From Paraspadella gotoi (taxonomy: Eukaryota; Animalia; Chaetognatha), in NCBI GenBank assembly GCA_051294375.1, contig JBJCIZ010001298.1:1-10196 (forward strand): DNA of 10,196 bases, given 5' to 3'. Below the pieces are notes generated by a model. It was given only the letters and a program-made list of their open reading frames with translations. It was not told the DNA's origin and searched no databases. The position numbers and the translations under genes are program-made. Shown here piece by piece: positions 1,953-10,196 of this stretch. Numbering within the stretch: position 1 is the first letter of the stretch; each line of letters opens with the position of its first letter.

Positions 1953-3111
1953 GTAAGTCTAAGTCTGTACATGGGATAACTTTTCCATTTATAGGATAAA
2001 CGGCTTTAGGATTTTATAGGAGGTTGTCTGAGAGTCTGGCTATTGCCCATTTAAGCAGTTTTTCAAAAAAAAAATCCTAAACCACTTAAAAATTGGGTCA
2101 AAAAAAAAAGTTAAAAATTTGCATACCATGTATATTTTTTTAATTTTCTTCTTAAAATTTGGCTAAATGATACTCAAGAGGGTTTGTGAGCTTCTGTAGG
2201 AATATTGTTACTATCTGAAAATTTTTTGCCATTTTTATCAGTGCTGATATTTTTGATGGGTCATTTTTTCAATGATGCATAACTTCCTTATTAATGAATA
2301 TTATGGTTTTAAATTTTAGTAATAGGTGGGCCTTGGGTAGTCCTACAATACACATGAGTTTCAGTCATTTTAAAAAACATTTTGGCACAGGTCAAAATTT
2401 TTTTGACAAAATTCAATTGGTTATTATGCCAAAAGTATGACAGTAAATGATATAATTTTTTCGTTATAAATCAGTAAAAGCATGCTTTTTATAACCCTGA
2501 AGTAAAAAATTTTTCTTTGCGTTTCTAAAAACTCATTTGCATATTAATAGTTTTTTTAAATTTTTACAATTTTTTACTTTAAATCAATTTTTTTTCATTA
2601 GTTTTTAACACACGAGTAATATATTATATAACGCTTTAAAAAATAACATCATAGCTAAATTTGAATATATTCTAAATATTTTTATTAATTTTTAAATATT
2701 ACTAAAAAATGTTAATTTATTAAACATTTTACAAATTATTACAAATTTGGCAGCATTGAATAGAGGGCAACATAGGGATTCCAAATATATAATTTTTTTC
2801 TCAAATTTATTTGTTCAAAGTTGAGAAAATCCATGCCAAAGTGCTCAAAAATCGAAAAAAATGCCCTTTTTTGAAAGCCAATAAAAAATGTAACCATGAT
2901 AATTTTTTCTCAATTTTTCGGAAATAGGTCAAGTTTTATCTATATTTTGTAGTCGTCAAGTATTAGGTCAATCAAAGAAATTTTACTACCATATTTAAGG
3001 GGAAAGTTAAATTTTACCAGTTTAGAAAAGTTTAATTCGTGTTTTTAATAAGAAGGATACAAGTGAAGTTTTTTTAAAAGATAATTTCTTCTATAATGTA
3101 CAAAAGAATAT

Positions 3112-3600
3112 ATGAAAGAAGTACGGAAGGAAGAATGGAAGGAAGTACGGAAGGAAGGAAAGAAAAAAGGAAGGAAGGAAGGAAGGAAGGAAGGAAAGAA
3201 AAAAGGAAGGAAGGAAGGAAGGATTAAAAGAAATAAAGAGTGGAAAAAAGGAAAGAAAGAGAAAAATGAAGGAAAGAGGAAGATGAAATTAAAGAAAAAG
3301 GGATGTCAGGAGAGGAAAAAAGAAGAAAAAGGGTTTCAAGGAAAGGAAGAAAGAAAAAAGCTAGCAGAATTAATGATGGAAAACGAACGAACGAAAGATA
3401 AAAAAAGGGAAAAAAAGAAAAAAAAAGGAAAGACGGAAAAAAATAGGAGAGAAAAAAAAAAGAAACGGAATCTGAAAATGAATAAATGAATGAATCAACC
3501 AATGAATCAAAAATCAATTCAATAAACGCCAAAGGGAAAAAGAAATAAGTAAACAAGAAAGGAAACAAAGAAGGAAAGAAGGAAAGAAGAAAGAAAAATA
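3112..3600. repeat. (GAAG)n and A/G-rich low-complexity tract
   Basis: ggaaggaaggaa arrays grading into A-rich purine sequence. Confidence 0.9.
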
Positions 3601-3659
3601 GTTTTTACAAAAAGACTGAAAAACCAGCTAATACTGTGAAGTATACCTTAACAGTTGCA

Positions 3660-3910
3660 GCTGATTTTTGCCATTAAGAAATGTCTTGCGAAAGAGATAT
3701 TTGGAAACCTCCTAATCGCCATTTTTCAACGCCGCCAAAAAAGGAAAATCGTCCTCAACGTCTGGGTTCGAATCCAATTCCTTTCCTCGATAAAACTAAT
3801 ATTTTTTTGTCTTCAAAATGTAAAACCCCCTCTATCGAGATCAAGTGTTTTAAAGGCATCGATAAAACGACATCTTGCTTGTTACCAAGGTTGGTACTTC
3901 TTTTGTCTCC
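3660..3910 (-). pseudogene. Degraded EF-hand (calmodulin-superfamily, EFCAB2-like) coding fragment
   Basis: Across frameshifts: RQKKYQP..QDV.FIDAFKTLDLDRGG.LHFED.K..LSRKGIGFEP.VEDDF.LAALKNG, resembling the AFxxLDxxxxGxLxxEDLK EF-hand pattern. Confidence 0.4.
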
Positions 3911-4006
3911 TTGCAATTTTTGATAATTTTCAGCATCTGGACACTGGTTGCTCGTAACTTGTTTTAACAGGATTTTAAATTGTTTTTTTTTTCCCAAATA
4001 TATTAC

Positions 4007-4393
4007 CGTTTTATCACATCATTTGCATGTAGGTGGGACTTTCGTCCATTACTGTACAAGCACATATTGGCATTCGCTGTGTTAACGTGTAACCTTCAGT
4101 TCATCTAGTTTCGTCGTCGATTTTAACACTCTGATTTCATCCCAATAGGTTCATAAGTCTTTAATAAAAATTTTCTCGGGCTTCGATGACGTTCCTGGCG
4201 CCATGCCCGTCATAATAGATACCCTTTTTCTGGACATTGAGGACTAAATCCAGCGCGCGCATCCCAATTGGAATAGTTAGTTCTTTCGGATATTTGTCTT
4301 CAGGATTCAAGTTCCAGTTTCCATACTCATCCCTACCCAATTGGAAATATCATTTACATTTTAAAGCAGCTCGGTCAAATTTTGTGGATTTTC
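4007..4393 (-). pseudogene. Frameshifted duplicate of transposase exon 9086-9447
   Basis: Collinear with 9086-9447 and has the same splice sites, but carries many small indels that break the frame. Confidence 0.88.
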
Positions 4394-4413
4394 CTGTATG
4401 GGGAGAAAATAGA

Positions 4414-4696
4414 TTTTTAGCCGAGATCTGCCTAATGCCGTTCTCGTATCTCTTATGCTATATATCACTTGTCCGGTCGTCGGTCGCGCTCCACTAATTA
4501 AAAGTTTGTCGGTAAGTCACTTAAATCATGTCAGAACATCGAATTATGATAAATTAAATAAGTATAGGGACGATTGACTTGAAATTTTGTATATTAGTAG
4601 GAAACGTTGTATGATTGAGCTGGAAATCAAGTTTCAACGGAATCGTCTGAGTGGAAATGTAGTCGGGCATGGCCTAGGTTCACCCCGCCTATTAGT
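4414..4696 (+). mobile_element. HINE-like element B, duplicate copy
   Basis: Duplicate of 9464-9730, lying in the intron between transposase exons 5234 and 4393. Confidence 0.6.
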
Positions 4697-4699
4697 TGT

Positions 4700-4935
4700 G
4701 ACCCGGTGGCTCATTGAGTTAAGCCATCAGCTCATGGACCACTAGACGGGGTGGTACCGGTCAATCCCAACTCGGTACCTACCCTGCGGGAAGAGTGAGG
4801 CCGGCCGTAAGCCGCCTTGGGGGCGTGGCAAACCCTCAAGCCTGGTTCCAAGTCCAGGACCCGTTCCATGTCTGTCTAGAAGGGGTTATAGAAGTTATGG
4901 ATAGTCATCTTCTGCCCACTTAGCGCCTTATCCAC
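4700..4935 (+). mobile_element. tRNA-derived SINE-like element, duplicate copy
   Basis: Indel-rich duplicate of 9734-9970. Confidence 0.55.
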
Positions 4936-5233
4936 AGAAATTAAGTTTTTTAAATGGAAAAAAAAAATAATATGTTTTAATAATTGATTATGCTCTTTTA
5001 TATAAAATATATAAATGCAAGCTGCATTATTAATAAAATAATTATCAATTTATTATTTCATTAATCAGTTAATCCAATCAATCAATCAAATCGTCAACTG
5101 TTTGATTAATTAATCCATCAATCAATCATTTATCGTCTGGTGTTATCTTCGTCATCGTCGACATCATCGCCCGTCTATGCTTTTGTTGTGGTCAATTACA
5201 AATATTTTTAGAAAATCATCTCATTAAACACAC

Positions 5234-5724
5234 TTTTACAAATAATTTGAGCGCTGCACAAATAATCCGGATTGTCTTTCGGAGAAGGGGTTTTTCGGGT
5301 GGCGACCCCGTCGATCTTCTTTAATTTCCAATATTTTCTTCAAATTCCTTGACCCAACGTTCAATTGTTCTCGGATTAACATTGACAATGTTTGCAGCTG
5401 AAATCTCAATGCTCGATAGTTAAACCCCAAATTTCGGATTTTTCTTTTATGGTCTTGTAATAATGCGTGTTAATCCAATTGGTTTTTTTTCAATGTAAGA
5501 CATTTCATCGTAGGGTGATCCAATTTGTACCAAAGCTTCCAGAGCGAAATTTTTGTCGATCTGCCATTTTCGATGCAATTTTCATGGTAACTTTTTTGTC
5601 TCTGTTTCTTTTTTTGTGAACGCGAAAATTTTGATTTGTCCTGAATCTGGAGTTCATTTTTTGTTTTTGTCGCTTTTTTTTTTGGAAGCCAATAGCTGCT
5701 CTTCTGTCTCAGTCAGTAAATCTC
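5234..5724 (-). pseudogene. Frameshifted N-terminal (HTH-like) exon of the same transposase, copy 1; may extend to an acceptor at 6454
   Basis: Piecing frames together gives DKNFALEALVQIGSPYDEMSYIEK...YYKTIKEKSEIWGL...ISAANIVNVNPRTIERWVKEFEEN..IKEDRRGRHPK...LKLFVK. The phase-0 donor AAA|GTgtgt at 5233 matches the phase-0 acceptor at 4394. Several single-base indels are present. Confidence 0.75.
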
Positions 5725-6300
5725 TTGATCCCTCCGATCCATTCAATTCTCTCCGATCCATTCAATTCCTCTGATCCATTCAATTCCTCTGATCCATTCA
5801 ATTCCTCCGATCCATTCAATTCCTCCGATCCATTCAAATCCTTGATTCCATTCAAATCCTCTGATCCATTCAGTCCTCCGAATCTATCCAATTCCTCCGA
5901 CCATTCAATTCCTCCAATCCATTCAATTTCTCCGATCCATGGAATTCCTCCAATTATCCATTCAATTCCTCCAATCCATTCAATTCCTCCGATCCATCCA
6001 ATTCCTCCGATCCATCCAATTGCTCCAATCCATGGAATTCCTTCCAATCCATTCAATTCCTCCGATCCATGCAATATCTCCGCTCCATGCAATTTTCTCC
6101 GATTCTATCCAATTCCTCCGATCCATTCAATTCCTCCATTCCATTCAATATCCTCCGATCCATTCAATTCCTCCAATCCATTAAATTTTCTCCGAACCAT
6201 CCCAATTTCTCCGATCCATTCAATTCCTCCGATCCATGCAATATTCTCTGATCCATGCAATTTCTCTGATCCATCCAAAACCTCCAATTCATCCAATTCC
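5725..6300. repeat. 18-bp tandem repeat (consensus GATCCATTCAATTCCTCC), roughly 30 units
   Basis: Directly visible. It translates as (NGSEEL)n or (IEWIGG)n on minus and (SDPFNS)n or (IPPIHS)n on plus. Confidence 0.95.
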
Positions 6301-6527
6301 ACTTTCCGATGGTGCCATCAATTGGTTACGGGAATCACAGATTGATTGACGTCAAAGAGGGAGTCTTTCTATTGTCTGTAGTTATCTGTTCCGGTTTTTT
6401 TCTTTCTCAGCTGCCAACGATGAAGGAGAGCCAGATTTTATGATTTTCTGCGTCTAAAATTATTGTTTTTGCCGTGAGTTCCCTACTCTTTTTTCCAAAT
6501 TTCATCACTTCATATTAATTTTGTCAT

Positions 6528-6552
6528 NNNNNNNNNNNNNNNNNNNNNNNNN
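6528..6552. other. Assembly gap (25 N)
   Basis: Run of N. Confidence 1.
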
Positions 6553-7010
6553 ATCGGTTGCATTTAAAGAAAAAATTTTAAAAGAATAGATTTAACCAGA
6601 CCCTGTTCTTAACTGTTCTAATCTGCACTATCCTTAAAAATGGCTCTAATCGACACCGGGATTGAGCGCACGGTTTCTCGACTTAGAATAGTAGTTATTC
6701 CAATTCATAATAGCCTTCTTAATAATATACATACTGCTAGGGAACATTAACATATTTAGTAGTGGTTTTAAGCTCTAAACTGAGCAAATTCGACCATTTT
6801 AGTAGCGCAGCATATTGTCAGAGCAAGAGAAAAAAATAGCTATATCAGAAAGAGAAAACAACAGTGATTATTTAGTATATTATAAAAAGACATTCAATAA
6901 CATTTTGCCTATAAAATCTGATGGAAAATACCATTCTAAGTTTTGAATCACTACGGGTGTATGTTTCTTTGAAAAAACAATAAGCGTAATTAGTTAATAA
7001 TAATATTTAC

Positions 7011-7165
7011 CACGTGATTTTCCCGCTACATTTTTAATACGGAGGGTTTTGGCTACGTCTCTATAAGCACACTCGATTGGGGCGAGTTCTGGGTGAAACT
7101 TGGGTGTATATATCACCACATCTCCACGTTTCTCTGCTTCTTCTTCGACCATCGATTTTGAGGCT
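7011..7165 (-). CDS. Transposase exon carrying the third catalytic residue (PKFHPELAPIE)
   Basis: A 67-bp GT-AG intron (7232-7166) joins in phase (AA|A, Lys). It reads KASKSMVEEEAEKRGDVVIYTPKFHPELAPIECAYRDVAKTLR...; PKFHPELxPIE (7104-7072) corresponds to the IS630/Tc1 PxxSPDLNPIE motif. Donor G|GTaaat at 7010. Confidence 0.92.
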
Positions 7166-7232
7166 CTAAAATAATTTTAAACTTAATGAACATAAACGAT
7201 AAATAAGATTAAAAGTATTTGAAATTCTTCAC

Positions 7233-7383
7233 TTAAAATCTTCTTCTTTTTCAAGAAGGGCGACAAGGTCATCTTGTAAGAGACCCCTAACAGCTTCATC
7301 TCCAAAACGTTCGCGACAAATTTGCCGCAAACCTTTGGCTGTCCCAGCGTTTGCGCCATCCTCCCAAACCATTTTTTGGACAA
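7233..7383 (-). CDS. Transposase exon (insertion region between the second Asp and the Glu)
   Basis: AG| at 7384 and |GT at 7232. The frame is not in the ORF track: VQKMVWEDGANAGTAKGLRQICRERFGDEAVRGLLQDDLVALLEKEEDF, matching the QxMV...GxxKGLxQxxxER...LLxxxxDF motif of this transposase clade. Confidence 0.88.
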
Positions 7384-7518
7384 CTATTTAAAAAGCATCG
7401 GTAAATTGCATTTCAGGAATATTAAGGAAATTATTTCATGTAGATAAGACGCGATGTACAGTCCTGAGCAAAAAAATTGCGCCATTATGGTGGACTAAAA
7501 TCCACCAACCGTTCATCA

Positions 7519-7705
7519 GCGGCCATTGGTGCCGGAGGCAAGTCATTCGCCTCCCAACCCAAAGGTCCGGGGTTCTAGCCCGGTGGTCGTCTGGCAGTTA
7601 AGAGGGACGGGGCGCTTAACCCGCCTGTAACATGGTGTTACAGCCTGATCCGAAGCTCAGGGACTGCTTATATTGAACGGTTCTGTCACTAACACATAAC
7701 AATAA
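7519..7705 (+). mobile_element. tRNA(Gly-CCC)-derived SINE-like element or pseudo-tRNA with a structured 3' body
   Basis: 72-nt head: acceptor stem GCGGCCA (7519-7525) / TGGTCGT (7584-7590), TCGCCTCCCA as in tRNA-Gly(CCC), T arm CCGGG-GTTCTAG-CCCGG. The anticodon stem is broken. The body has several hairpins and ends in an AC/AT-rich tail. Confidence 0.6.
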
Positions 7706-7918
7706 TTACTGTCTCTTCATCATTTTATTTCAGAATTTTAAAAATCACCATATATACTTAAAAATTTTTAAAAATTGTAAAAATAAAGTTTATTAAAAAT
7801 TATGTTTGGTATAAATTTTATTAAAATTGGGCCATCCCTTAAGGAGTAGTAATTTTTTTAAATGAAATATTTTACCGCAAAGCTGATTATAAAAAAGCCT
7901 GACAGATTTAAGATTAAC

Positions 7919-8104
7919 NNNNNNNNNNNNNNNNNNNNNNNNNNNNNNNNNNNNNNNNNNNNNNNNNNNNNNNNNNNNNNNNNNNNNNNNNNNNNNNNNN
8001 NNNNNNNNNNNNNNNNNNNNNNNNNNNNNNNNNNNNNNNNNNNNNNNNNNNNNNNNNNNNNNNNNNNNNNNNNNNNNNNNNNNNNNNNNNNNNNNNNNNN
8101 NNNN
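7919..8104. other. Assembly gap (186 N), probably hiding the second catalytic Asp of the transposase
   Basis: Run of N interrupting the exon that starts at 8171. Confidence 1.
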
Positions 8105-8171
8105 CGCCGTCATAACAAGCGTTCCCAACGATTTAGGAGACGGAAAAATTCCGTCGCCGAGAGACCAGCAA
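8105..8171 (-). CDS. Next transposase exon, running into the N gap
   Basis: Acceptor ttttatttAG|T at 8172 completes CG+T (Arg) in phase with the 9086 exon. It reads R-CWSLGDGIFPSPKSLGTLVMTA, the W...PKxxGxxxMxx motif expected right after the first catalytic Asp. Confidence 0.85.
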
Positions 8172-8655
8172 CTAAATAAAAATCAATGATTACATTTTTA
8201 ACAGGATATGCTTACTGCAGATCCCGGCTCTACGATTCACTTTGTCAGTCAGTCAGTCACACCCCAAAATATTATCCCTGAAGTTATGTCAGAACTTCAA
8301 ATTATGATAAATTATGCAAAAAAATCGATGTCCGTGAAATTGTCCAAGTGGTAATAAGTTTAATGGAAAAAAAGCCATTTCATTATTTTATTTTGCTTTT
8401 TTTCTTTTTTATTAAGTAATTTATTTATTATCTAAATAATTAATTTATTAATTAAATGATTATCTTATCAGCTGCCTACCGCAAATGATAGTGAAACTGT
8501 TTCACTATTTGATTATGTAAGAGATGACTATTTGATATGATCCTAAATAAGATTGAGATATTGTAGTATTGAACTTGAATGGGCTTATTTTCATTCTGGA
8601 TTTCAATATTAGTTCTATTTTTCAGTTTTTAAGTAGTTATTTATAGTCTAGTTGG

Positions 8656-8827
8656 GTGGAGAAGGCCGTGCGGCTCTCGAGACTCGAACTCGAATACTAA
8701 ATGCGTGTGGGGAAACGTTGAGTGGCATGACGACATCGAAAAGTTGGATCTGGAGGCGAGGGTTGCTGCAGCAGTTTTCCTCGTCAATCTCATGCGGCAC
8801 ATGGAAACAAATATTTTCAAGCGTTGA
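8656..8827 (+). pseudogene. ATPAF2: Degraded 3' coding fragment of ATP12/ATPAF2 (mitochondrial F1-ATPase assembly chaperone)
   Basis: VEKAVRLSRLELEY*MR /frameshift/ VWGNVEWHDDIEKLDLEARVAAAVFLVNL...KR* parallels the ATPAF2 C-terminus as recalled (VEQAVLLSRLEEEYQIQKWGNIEWAHDYELQELRARTAAGTLFIHL). TAA at 8698-8700 sits where Gln is expected. Confidence 0.85.
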
Positions 8828-8965
8828 AGGCGGCGGAGAATTGGTTTAGACTTAGGACGGGTGTGGCGCTGCCGATTCGTCAATTTAGACTGTGATTCTT
8901 CACGTTATCGTCGGGGATGTACGTTTGATGTTTTTACAAAACGACCTCAAAAAATTGAAGTTTAA

Positions 8966-8996
8966 ATAATTAATTAATTAATTAATTAATTAATTA
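8966..8996. repeat. (TAAT)n microsatellite inside element A
   Basis: taattaattaattaaattaattaattaatta. Confidence 0.85.
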
Positions 8997-9085
8997 CTGC
9001 TAATGATCGTAGGCAGATCTGACACTGGTTGCTCGAACTTGTTTTTACAGGATTTTAAAATTTTTTTTTTTCCCAAATATATTAC

Positions 9086-9447
9086 CGTTTTATCACATCA
9101 TTTGAGTGGTGGGACTTTTCGTCCATACTGACAAGCACATATTTGGCATTCGCTGTTGGTAACACTTCAAGTTCATCAGTTTCGTCGTCGATTTTAACAC
9201 TCTGATTTCTCCAATAGTCATAAGTCTTTAAAAAATTTTCTCGGGCTTCGATGACGTCCTGGCGCTCATGCCCGTCATAATAGATACCCTTTTTCTGGAC
9301 ATTGAGACTAAATCCCAGCGCGCGCATCCAATTGGAAATAGTTCTTTCGGAATATTTGTCTTCAGGTTCAAGTTCCAGTTTCCTACTAACCCAATTGGAA
9401 ATATCTTTACAGTTTAAAGCAGCTCCGGTCAAATTTTGTGGATTTTC
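9086..9447 (-). CDS. Internal exon of a spliced IS630/Tc1/mariner-like DDE transposase (second HTH, GHER motif, first catalytic Asp)
   Basis: Acceptor ttttctctacAG|GAA at 9448 (phase 0); donor CG|GTaata at 9085 (phase 2). Open frame ENPQNLTGAALNCKDISNWV...SERTISNWMRALGF...KKGIYYDGHERQDVIEARENFL...VLVSMDEKSHHSND matches the KKGxYxDGHERxDVxxxR and DE..F/H..ND motifs of eukaryotic IS630-like transposases. Confidence 0.9.
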
Positions 9448-9463
9448 CTGTAGAGAAAATAGA

Positions 9464-9730
9464 TTTTTAGCCGGATCTGCCTAATGCCGTTCTCGGCTCT
9501 ATAATTCACTTTGTCGGTCCGTCGGTCGCGCCCTAAAAGTTTGTCGGTAAGTCACTTAAATCATGTCAGAACATCGAATTATGATAAATTAAATAAGTAT
9601 AGGAGACGATTGACTTGAAATTTTGTATATTAGTAGGAAAGTGTATGATTGAGCTGGAAATCAAGTTTCAACGGAATCGTCTGAGTGGAAATGTAGTCGG
9701 GCATGGCCTAGGTTCACCCCGCCTATTAGT
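9464..9730 (+). mobile_element. HINE-like element B, 5' part; same family as element A, 3' end not seen
   Basis: tttttagccggatctgcctaatgccgttctcggctctataattcacttt-gtcggtccgtcggtc aligns with 8195-8260, and atgtcagaacatcgaattatgataaatta aligns with about 8286-8314. Internal inverted repeat AGACGATT (9604-9611) / AATCGTCT (9675-9682). Confidence 0.65.
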
Positions 9731-9733
9731 TGT

Positions 9734-9970
9734 GACCCGGTGGCTCATTGAGTAAAGCCATCAGCTCATGACCACTAGGTACCGGGTTCAATCCCAACCC
9801 GGTACCTACCCTGCGGGAAGAGTGAGGCCGGCCGTAAGCCGCCTTGGGGGCGTGGCAAACCCTCAAGCCTGGTTCCAAGTCCAGGACCCGTTCCATGTCT
9901 GCTAGAAGGGGTTATAGAAGTTATGGATAGTCATCTTCTGCCCACTTAGCGCCTTATCCACAGAAATAAG
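9734..9970 (+). mobile_element. tRNA-derived SINE-like element (Met-like head); 3' end approximate
   Basis: A-box-like TGGCTCATTGAG, CTCATGA anticodon-loop remnant and B box GGTTCAATCCC (9785-9795). The anticodon stem does not pair. A GC-rich hairpin body is followed by an A-rich tract. Confidence 0.6.
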
Positions 9971-10196
9971 TTTAAATGGAAAAAAAAAATAATATGTTTT
10001 AATAATTGATTATGCTCTTTTATATAAAATATAAATGCAAGCTGCATTATTAATAAAATAATTATCAATTTATTATTTCATTAATCAGTTAATCCAATCA
10101 ATCAATCAAATCGTCAACTGTTTGATTAATTAATCCATCAATCAATCATTTATCGTCGGTGTTATCTTCGTCATCGTCGACATCATCGCCGTCTAT

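What the first reader, a model, noticed from the sequence alone, without database searches (positions are those of the whole stretch)
7011..9447. Hidden multi-exon IS630/Tc1/mariner-like transposase with open exons and TE-filled introns: possible domestication
Seen: four open exons with GT-AG boundaries, and matching phases at the two junctions that can be checked; copy 1 adds an upstream exon, so at least five exons. Established: typical Tc1/mariner elements are compact, with few or no introns. Inference: exons that stay open while introns gain HINE- and SINE-like insertions, with no flanking TIRs visible, suggest a host-domesticated transposase or an unusually large intron-rich transposon.
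Basis: partly seen in the sequence, partly recalled or inferred. Interest (0 to 1): 0.8.

Follow-up and report, generated by a model that had tools for sequence, protein, structure and literature searches.

The report
Spliced, single-locus long-spacer transposase gene
A gene for a jumping-gene enzyme of the IS630/Tc1/mariner kind is split here into at least six exons, appears spliced in a likely RNA data set and shows as one locus, so it is likely a transposase kept by the host, although its ends were not seen and distant relatives with introns are still bounded as ordinary transposons.

Summary
The four exons and their splice phases are real. One 2,090-nt contig, in a run that is probably RNA, joins them and adds the upstream exon. 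The 440 nt between the exons flanking the gap keep the frame and give a normal catalytic-core length. 'Copy 1' (3935-5178) is not a second copy. Three DNA runs hold only the copy-2 sequence, and copy 1 has 75 extra bases, so it is likely a raw long-read patch.

The protein has the mariner fold, and full-length relatives show a long D-to-E spacer of 111-129 residues. I found no name for this Sailor-like lineage. DNA runs show one contig per exon, and the introns hold high-copy repeats. That favours a host-kept gene (about 55%).

Against: neither end of the unit is in the window, so the missing TIRs prove nothing. Distant relatives with two introns are TA-flanked TIR transposons in several copies. 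Synteny was not testable. Precedent: bivalve TLEWI. The scan noted intron-bearing ITm transposases in other genomes; a sequence look-up with a close relative found none of this lineage.

The parts
5234..5725 (-). 3' part of exon 1 (first helix-turn-helix region and linker), present only in the misplaced raw-read segment; its frameshifts are sequence errors
   Evidence: X5 contig record 1578-2055 fits 5233-5725 with 3 substitutions and 15 gaps; DNA contigs of X1, X2 and X4 show the same kind of gaps; GT donor at 5233-5232; tblastn to full-length relatives
5728..6527 (-). Likely 5' part of exon 1: about 30 copies of an 18-nt unit that would encode an acidic hexapeptide repeat, then a possible start region; frame and start codon not established
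   Evidence: Repeat family D2 and self-blastn; the X5 contig has 35 more nt beyond 5725; no reads were laid on this stretch
9448..10196 (-). Intron 1 (about 0.8 kb, runs off the window) with a HINE-like and a tRNA-SINE-like high-copy insert
   Evidence: Equivalent stretch 4393-5233 has summed depth 1e5-1e6; AG acceptor at 9449-9448; class labels from recalled motifs
9086..9447 (-). Exon 2: second HTH, the DGHER motif and the first catalytic Asp (DEK.HHSND motif)
   Evidence: Open frame; HTH_33 E=0.012, below cut-off; 607 relatives at E<=0.001; X5/X6 contig with 0 differences
8172..9085 (-). Intron 2 (914 nt, GT-AG, phase 2) with a HINE-like piece (about 8191-8335) and a 281-nt piece of another repeat (8654-8934)
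   Evidence: (tables 2, 7, 8)
8105..8171 (-). Visible start of exon 3 (continues into the gap)
   Evidence: In frame with exon 2; bin depth 9.48 fits a depth-15 contig over 64 of 101 bases
7919..8104 (.). 186-N gap that must hide about 373 nt of coding sequence, including the second catalytic Asp; the gap size is underestimated
   Evidence: 440 nt of transcript between exon 2 and exon 4, 67 visible; an X4 DNA contig runs 257 nt into the gap (record 14)
7384..7918 (-). Intron before exon 4, with a very high-copy tRNA-SINE-like insert at 7484-7719
   Evidence: Summed depth 1-4 million, loose ends at 7484/7486 and 7719; A/B-box label recalled; Rfam and ARAGORN found nothing
7233..7383 (-). Exon 4: part of the long insertion between the second Asp and the Glu
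   Evidence: X5/X6 contig; tblastn to P0018 and P0041
7166..7232 (-). Intron 4 (67 nt, GT-AG, phase 2)
   Evidence: bin depth 5.04 fits a skip of this intron
7011..7165 (-). Exon 5 with the catalytic Glu (FHPEL..IE motif)
   Evidence: DDE_3 E=0.0078, below cut-off; family profile aligns this motif to the C-terminal catalytic region of Sleeping Beauty, E=0.15
6553..7010 (-). Intron 5 (GT donor; acceptor and last exon(s) not in the window) with mid-copy repeats
   Evidence: depth 2,000-11,000 at 6654-6956; 469 nt of the X5 contig left over
3935..5178 (.). False duplicate ('copy 1') of 9017-10196, likely an unpolished long-read patch
   Evidence: 75 extra bases, 11 missing, 23 substitutions against copy 2; covered in X1, X2 and X4 only by the contig type that fits copy 2 (7 substitutions, 47-48 gaps)
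6528..6552 (.). 25-N gap that ends the misplaced segment

Best explanation
This is one spliced gene of at least six exons for an IS630/Tc1/mariner-type transposase with an unusually long catalytic spacer, and it is likely an old insertion that the host now keeps under selection, predicted to make a DNA-binding nuclease that recognises transposon-end-like sites. Shown: exon structure, splicing in one contig, open visible frame, first Asp and Glu present, one contig per exon in DNA runs, repeat-filled introns, mariner fold of a close relative. Inferred: (a) the hidden 146 codons are open and carry the second Asp (length fits, letters unseen); (b) the gene has sat in this genome while SINE- and HINE-like families spread, and its exons stayed open without leaving sibling copies, which a mobile element rarely does; (c) the protein binds ends of related elements through its HTH domains and can cut DNA through a D-D-(about 120)-E site. 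Its most likely job is to bind, and so control or mobilise, related non-autonomous elements; that last step is a guess.
For: Spliced contig across exons 1, 2 and 4, with exons 3 and 5 implied by bin depths. Frame kept across the gap: 440 = 1 + 146x3 + 1. First-Asp-to-Glu distance is 240, against 225-247 in 12 of 12 close relatives measured. The longest listed DNA contigs of X1 and X4 (two samples) fit copy 2 with 0 differences, and exon bins show one depth level: X1 32-38 on exons and 36.9 on unique intron. At least five repeat-derived pieces lie in about 2.7 kb of visible intron. If the locus had decayed neutrally by about 5.7% (half the 11% divergence of the 8654-8934 insert from its relative), the 732 visible coding nt would stay free of stops and frameshifts about 4% of the time (rough simulation). 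Both introns flanking exon 2 sit at the same position and phase in L001 (57% identity; pS 0.97, pN 0.31), whose next intron runs at least 1.36 kb with no further exon found. The other 7 rows of the window's 9-row clade also stop or lose homology just after the same motif. Fold: Z 16.9-15.6 to SETMAR, Mos1 and Sleeping Beauty catalytic domains.
Against: Neither end of the unit is visible, so TIR loss is untested. Distant relatives in one other assembly are TA-flanked TIR elements with two introns and open exons (5 of 8 loci tested had paired TIRs), and the minimal span here (about 5.6 kb) is within their size range. Contig depth is no copy number, and near-identical copies would collapse into one contig. 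X4 shows depth 66.8 on part of exon 1 against 34-43 elsewhere, and X1 has one exon-2 bin at 105. Low pN/pS is also expected of live transposon lineages. Perkinsus has many diverged paralogues of the same clade, as transposon families do. No syntenic orthologue could be checked (no genome held). The RNA status of X5 is the tool's guess, and X6, with the same contigs, is listed as DNA.
Confidence: 0.55

Rival explanations
1. It is a low-copy, still or recently mobile transposon of an intron-rich lineage: a unit of 6 kb or more with TIRs outside the window, which carries its repeat-filled introns along when it moves.
For: Intron-bearing TIR/TA elements of 5.5-6.8 kb exist in the wider family, with copies 95-99% identical at different sites. 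The visible catalytic residues are intact. The clade has many diverged paralogues in Perkinsus and metagenome clusters of 13-41 members. The TLEWI paper reports that those elements kept moving after gaining introns (10.1101/656579).
Against: No sibling copy appeared as a separate contig on the exons at 85% likeness in X1 and X4, or at 80% in X1, X2 and X4. The TIR-bearing relatives fall outside the window's 58-row clade, and their two introns are short (62-242 nt). Only 1 of 52 motif hits in the 80 loci (L001) has this intron.
Confidence: 0.33
2. It is a young dead or dying transposon copy that is still transcribed and spliced, with the lesion hidden in the gap, in exon 1 or in the last exon.
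For: About 373 nt of core, most of exon 1 and the C-terminus could not be read. At 1-2% neutral decay the visible exons would still be open 30-55% of the time.
Against: The hidden stretch keeps frame and family length. A young copy implies sister copies, and none was seen.
Confidence: 0.09
3. There are two real tandem copies, one intact and one decayed ('copy 1'), as the window appears to show.
For: The window holds a 1.25-kb direct repeat at 91% identity.
Against: Differences are mostly small insertions (75 extra, 11 missing, 23 substitutions). None of 3 DNA runs listed a contig fitting copy 1 exactly, and their contig follows the copy-2 flank. The RNA-like contig links exon 1 of the 'copy 1' segment directly to the copy-2 form of exon 2.
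Confidence: 0.03

Closest known systems
TLEWI, Tc1-like elements with introns of bivalves (Puzakov et al., bioRxiv 10.1101/656579; parts 1-3 of 4 read)
   Same: ITm transposase split into several exons by GT-AG introns at conserved positions, low copy number, spliced transcripts, domestication proposed but unsettled.
   Different: TLEWI are DD36E Tc1-family proteins of 322-378 aa. Relatives of this protein are 530-740 aa with 111-129 residues between Asp and Glu. TLEWI were shown to lack TIRs; here the ends are unseen.
Sailor (DD82E) superfamily (Shi et al. 2021, PMC8533490; section 3.3, passages and a supplement term search seen)
   Same: ITm transposases with an enlarged D-to-E spacer and a similar motif before the Glu; elements up to 7 kb; ESM Atlas neighbours of this clade are DDE_3 and C21orf140-like clusters.
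   Different: Sailor spans DD78-111E, mostly has TATA target duplications and TIRs starting GT or CC, and has bacterial members. Close relatives here are DD121-129E; the mobile distant relatives have TA and TIRs starting CAGTG. The motifs DGHER, HDES and KFHCELN occur 0 times in the Sailor supplement as held (file cut when stored).
Mos1, Sleeping Beauty and SETMAR catalytic domains (PDB 2f7t, 3hos, 5cr4, 3k9j)
   Same: Same fold in the model of close relative P0018: Z 15.6-16.9, rmsd 2.7-4.0 A over 192-219 residues, well above the integrases at Z 11 or less.
   Different: 13-16% identity; about 85-90 extra residues between the second Asp and the Glu, compared with the recalled 34-residue spacer of these proteins.
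Intron-bearing TIR elements in loci L038, L045, L074, L079 and L080 (one public assembly; found here, not a published family)
   Same: Same protein family (DGHER, first-Asp and pre-Glu motifs; DD111E); introns with open exons; similar total size.
   Different: Outside the window's clade; two short introns at other positions; multi-copy, with TIRs and TA duplications.
C21ORF140/FAM243A, listed as a putative DDE nuclease (PMC11377751; one passage seen)
   Same: A vertebrate host gene tied to neighbouring DDE_3 clusters in the Atlas: a likely precedent for domestication near this group.
   Different: About 270 aa, against a full-length protein here with HTH domains and at least two of three catalytic residues; Atlas score only 0.86-0.89, a lead.

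Membership tests
IS630/Tc1/mariner (ITm) transposases | RNase H-like catalytic domain of the mariner type | tested here: met
   Model of close relative P0018 (pLDDT 80): Foldseek E 9e-6 to Mos1; VIA Z 15.6-16.9 to SETMAR, Mos1 and Sleeping Beauty. The window's own protein was not folded.
IS630/Tc1/mariner (ITm) transposases | D-D-E/D catalytic triad | tested here: inconclusive
   First Asp (exon 2) and Glu (exon 5) present at the family's positions; the second Asp lies in the gap, whose length fits.
IS630/Tc1/mariner (ITm) transposases | N-terminal helix-turn-helix DNA-binding region | tested here: met
   HTH_33 E=0.012 in exon 2 and HTH_23 E=0.0014 in relative P0009, both below curated cut-offs; exon 1 aligns to the same region of relatives.
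IS630/Tc1/mariner (ITm) transposons | Terminal inverted repeats with a TA target duplication | not testable with these tools
   Ends of this unit are outside the visible sequence and no genome is held. Met in distant relatives: 5 of 8 loci tested.
Tc1 family and TLEWI | DD34-41E spacing (DD36E for TLEWI) | tested here: not met
   Close relatives are DD121-129E; first-Asp-to-Glu distance is 240 in the window.
Sailor (DD82E) | DD78-111E spacing | tested here: not met
   121-129 in the 12 close relatives; 111-124 in distant ones, touching the top of Sailor's range.
Sailor (DD82E) | Mostly TATA target duplication; TIRs usually starting GT or CC | tested here: inconclusive
   Ends unseen here. In distant relatives the duplication is TA (TATA on both sides in 1 of the 4 printed with both ends) and TIRs start CAGTG.
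Sailor (DD82E) | Falls inside the Sailor clade in a transposase tree | not tested
   No Sailor sequences were in the tree. A term search of the paper's supplement found 0 hits for three motifs of this clade and 36 for Sailor's own (file cut when stored).
Domesticated transposase gene | Single copy | tested here: inconclusive
   One contig per exon and even depth in DNA runs, but contig depth is no copy number and identical copies would collapse.
Domesticated transposase gene | Intact frame and spliced transcript | tested here: met
   732 visible coding nt open; one contig joins the exons; frame kept across the gap. RNA status is the tool's guess; hidden letters unseen.
Domesticated transposase gene | Loss of TIRs and target duplication | not testable with these tools
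   Neither end is in the window.
Domesticated transposase gene | Orthologues at the syntenic position in related species | not testable with these tools
   No eukaryote genomes searchable; L001 shares two intron positions but is a 1,960-nt contig without neighbouring genes.
Domesticated transposase gene | Purifying selection between orthologues | tested here: inconclusive
   pS 0.97, pN 0.31 against L001 over 120 codons; saturated, orthology not shown, and also expected of live transposons.

The most novel reading that the evidence does not exclude
An old, catalytically intact domestication from an unnamed ITm lineage with a D-D-(about 120)-E site. The window's gene, L001 and the seven other members of its clade would be orthologues across related invertebrates, kept with the same introns for long enough to saturate synonymous sites. 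The host would use them as a working DNA-cutting enzyme, in the way ciliates use PiggyMac or vertebrates RAG1 (both recalled).
Probability: 0.15. Interest if true: 0.8.

Novelty: new variant of a known kind. Interest (0 to 1): 0.47.

Why it matters
Intron-rich, possibly domesticated ITm transposases are already described (TLEWI in bivalves; several Drosophila genes, PMC13548663, abstract and one methods section seen), so the idea is not new. Two things here add to it. First, the gene belongs to an ITm lineage with about 120 residues between the second Asp and the Glu, for which my searches found no name, and whose TA/CAGTG-ended mobile members could be defined here. Second, the lineage appears to hold both mobile intron-bearing elements and a single-locus, heavily intronised gene, so it could show how a transposase passes from mobile to host-kept while keeping its active site. 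The case also shows how an unpolished long-read patch can fake a second, decayed copy.

Tried and rejected
Whole genome: none held, so no direct copy count, flanks or synteny. No listed holder is on record as RNA.

Two real tandem copies: rejected. A processed intronless DNA copy as the source of the joined contig: not excluded, since X6 is listed as DNA. But X5 and X6 give near-identical tables and hold about 77 million letters against 230-394 million for the DNA runs, and X1, X2 and X4 show only the intron-containing form among the records listed. The lack of DNA-run cover at 3600-3880 is a hole that proves nothing.

Pfam: weak hits only. 0 of the 8 full-length relatives scanned reached a curated cut-off. 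Rfam (0 matches at E<=0.5) and ARAGORN (0) did not label the SINE-like heads. Viral contigs (128 pattern matches, 0 relatives) and prokaryote genomes (27 matches, 0 relatives) gave nothing; these scans used narrow patterns. TACAGT occurs twice in the window and its reverse complement once, with no TIR pair.

The first tree (196 rows) did not finish. The reported one used 66 of 291 rows (56 by score and length, plus named references) with FastTree, on the exon-2 region only. The script flagged 6 of 52 motif hits; four were cases with no stop at all and one (L063) stops at another place, leaving L001.

Literature: C21orf140 + transposase, 0 papers; DD111E/113E/119E/121E/122E/123E, only the Sailor paper; DGHER + transposase, 1 unrelated title; a six-term new-superfamily search listed 18 papers, none with a title pointing to this lineage. 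TcMar-Sagan and TcMar-ISRm11 appeared only as repeat-class labels in a listing of 22 papers that I did not open, so the lineage may already be filed under such a label in Repbase or Dfam, which I could not search.
Full report
Observation. The window is an AT-rich draft-assembly stretch with gaps at 6528-6552 (25 N) and 7919-8104 (186 N) and a direct repeat 3935-5178 / 9017-10196 at 91% identity. On the minus strand lie four stop-free exons: 9447-9086, 8171 into the gap, 7383-7233 and 7165-7011. All visible acceptors are AG and all visible donors GT, and the 9086/8171 and 7233/7165 junctions read through in phase 2. Pfam gave weak hits in the expected places: HTH_33 in exon 2 (E 0.012) and DDE_3 in exon 5 (E 0.0078). 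Earlier notes on this genome call it a likely invertebrate animal; I did not test that.

Splicing. No whole genome is held. Six of 8 listed runs hold the stretch. Runs X5 (guessed RNA) and X6 (guessed DNA, but with near-identical tables, so probably one data set) hold a 2,090-nt contig of depth 15. It lies on 7233-7389 (record 626-782) and 9086-9447 (record 1217-1578), and continues into 5233-5725 (record 1578-2055). Exons 3 and 5 are not in the cut table of pieces, but bin depths of 9.48, 7.11 and 5.04 equal 15 times the fraction of each bin that those exons cover. With the true acceptor at 7383, 440 nt lie between exons 2 and 4: 1 + 146x3 + 1, so the frame is kept. The first-Asp-to-Glu distance becomes 240, against 225-247 in 12 close relatives. 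About 373 coding nt are therefore hidden in an undersized gap, and 469 nt of the transcript's 3' part lie outside the visible sequence. The gene has at least six exons.

'Copy 1'. Against copy 2 it has 75 extra bases, 11 missing bases and 23 substitutions. That insertion-heavy pattern is what I recall of raw single-pass long reads. In X1 the contig that fits 9004-9520 with 0 differences (526 nt, depth 37.9) is also the one laid on 3940-4446, there with 7 substitutions and 48 gaps; X2 and X4 show the same. The apparent frameshifts in exon 1 are likewise gaps against both DNA and RNA contigs. The segment 3935-6527 is thus likely a misplaced, unpolished patch of the same single gene. The PBJelly paper (PMC3504050; passages seen) describes raw-read extension into gaps and 'overfilled' gaps; that this tool made this assembly is my guess.

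Family. A phmmer search with exon 2 found 607 relatives at E<=0.001 and 24 at E<=1e-10. The named close ones are Perkinsus hypothetical proteins; the rest are unnamed. Full-length relatives are 530-740 aa with low-complexity N-termini, HTH regions and a triad spaced DD121-129E in the close group and DD111-124E in distant ones. The AlphaFold model of relative P0018 (pLDDT 80) matches Mos1 best in Foldseek (E 9e-6). It aligns to the SETMAR, Mos1 and Sleeping Beauty catalytic domains at Z 15.6-16.9, with integrases at 11 or less. The ESM Atlas places P0018 and P0246 next to eukaryotic DDE_3 and C21orf140-like clusters (one source of evidence). Sailor is the closest named group, but its spacing (DD78-111E), target duplication (mostly TATA) and TIR starts differ (PMC8533490), and three motifs of this clade are absent from its supplement as held. 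My searches found no name for the lineage; Repbase and Dfam could not be searched.

Do introns mean domestication here? Not alone. The metagenome scan kept 80 of 461 confirmed relatives and stopped after 20 of 64 parts. I compared the 18 loci longer than 9 kb; 13 come from one assembly and share stretches at 95-99% identity with different flanks. Of 8 tested, 5 have paired 36-39-bp matches that include TA plus a TIR starting CAGTG, bounding elements of 2.5-6.8 kb. L079 and L038 splice into open frames through two introns each, of 62-242 nt, one of them GC-AG. So the wider family works as TA-targeting cut-and-paste transposons and tolerates introns. These elements fall outside the window's clade: in a 66-row FastTree of the exon-2 region they sit in an 8-row outer group, while the window sits in a 9-row clade (SH 95) within a 58-row clade (SH 99).

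Within that 9-row clade, L001 (57% identity) has both flanking introns at the same position and phase, and no further exon was found in the 1.36 kb that follow. Six of the seven protein-only rows end within 13 residues after the first-Asp motif, and the seventh runs on in unrelated sequence; two also begin at an acceptor-like position. I read these as shared introns, but only L001 was checked in DNA. Among 52 motif hits in the 80 loci, only L001 has this intron. Between exon 2 and L001, pS is 0.97 and pN 0.31: selection on the protein, which either model predicts.

What tips towards domestication. In DNA runs from two samples the exons carry one depth level and the listed contigs have no differences, while the intron inserts draw thousands of contigs at summed depths of 1e5-1e6. 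At least five repeat-derived pieces lie in about 2.7 kb of visible intron. A long-dead copy is unlikely: at 5.7% neutral decay the 732 visible coding nt would survive about 4% of the time, though at 1-2% they would survive 30-55% of the time (a rough model, and the 5.7% rests on one insert whose nearest relative may be unseen). A transposon lineage that stayed long enough to collect these inserts should have left sibling copies (general knowledge of transposon life cycles), and none was seen at 80-85% likeness.

What holds it back. Contig depth is no copy number, and near-identical copies collapse. X4 has 66.8 on part of exon 1, and X1 has one exon-2 bin at 105. Neither end of the unit is visible. 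The minimal span, about 5.6 kb, is no larger than the mobile relatives. Synteny could not be checked, and the second Asp is unseen.

Comparison with the literature. TLEWI of bivalves (10.1101/656579; parts 1-3 of 4 read; supplements closed) are the direct precedent: 3-6 exons, low copy, spliced, mostly TIR-less, with domestication proposed and movement after intron gain also inferred. PMC13548663 (abstract and methods section 20 seen) uses low copy number and absence of TIRs among its criteria; the second could not be tested here. PMC7325037 and 10.1101/2025.06.16.659975 (passages only) gave no description of this lineage. PMC11377751 (one passage) lists C21ORF140 as a putative DDE nuclease.

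Verdict. It works like a TA-targeting cut-and-paste transposase. It is not a Tc1 or TLEWI member by spacing, and probably not Sailor. Host retention is the best reading at about 0.55, a low-copy live element is at 0.33. It is a new variant of a known kind; interest 0.47.

Noticed in passing
window 3643-3933 (+): Exon of another gene: an X5 contig (476 nt, depth 27.4) fits 3643-3889 exactly and stops at a GT donor at 3890; a 44-nt GT-AG intron would end at 3933, right where the false duplicate begins. An ATG-led frame starts at 3681; no Pfam hit.
   Followed up: partly
window 5728-6300: About 30 degenerate copies of an 18-nt unit at the N-terminal end of the transposase gene; one minus-strand frame would give an acidic hexapeptide repeat. 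Relatives also have low-complexity N-termini (L079, P0017).
   Followed up: partly
window 8654-8934: A 281-nt intron piece 88% like part of a 6.6-kb DNA contig and a 5-kb contig in the RNA-like runs: probably a fragment of another, expressed mobile element.
   Followed up: no
window 7457-7484: A TA-CAGT start just left of the SINE-like insert resembles a Tc1-type TIR end (recalled); no inverted partner found in the window.
   Followed up: partly
L038 9038-15828, L045 9046-15762, L079 8955-14449, L080 8945-14708, L074 8944-11477: Two or more families of multi-copy, intron-bearing TIR transposons (TA duplication, TIRs starting CAGTG, DD111E) in one public assembly; L079 has a GC-AG intron; L019, L038 and L045 carry a long short-period tandem array after the gene. 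They are good reference elements for naming the lineage.
   Followed up: partly
P0246, P0254, P0244, P0247, P0019, P0013, P0154 (Perkinsus): Three Perkinsus species hold many 'hypothetical proteins' of this clade; P0246 and P0254 look full-length with all three catalytic residues (DD123E).
   Followed up: partly
P0168, P0170, P0171, P0172, P0174-P0176: Metagenome gene-call fragments suggest further intron positions inside the exon-2 region in sister groups, while their tree neighbours P0250 and P0255 are uninterrupted (possibly transcripts): an intron-rich wider clade.
   Followed up: no
window 2030-3000: A very AT-rich stretch with the look of a non-autonomous DNA element; not examined.
   Followed up: no
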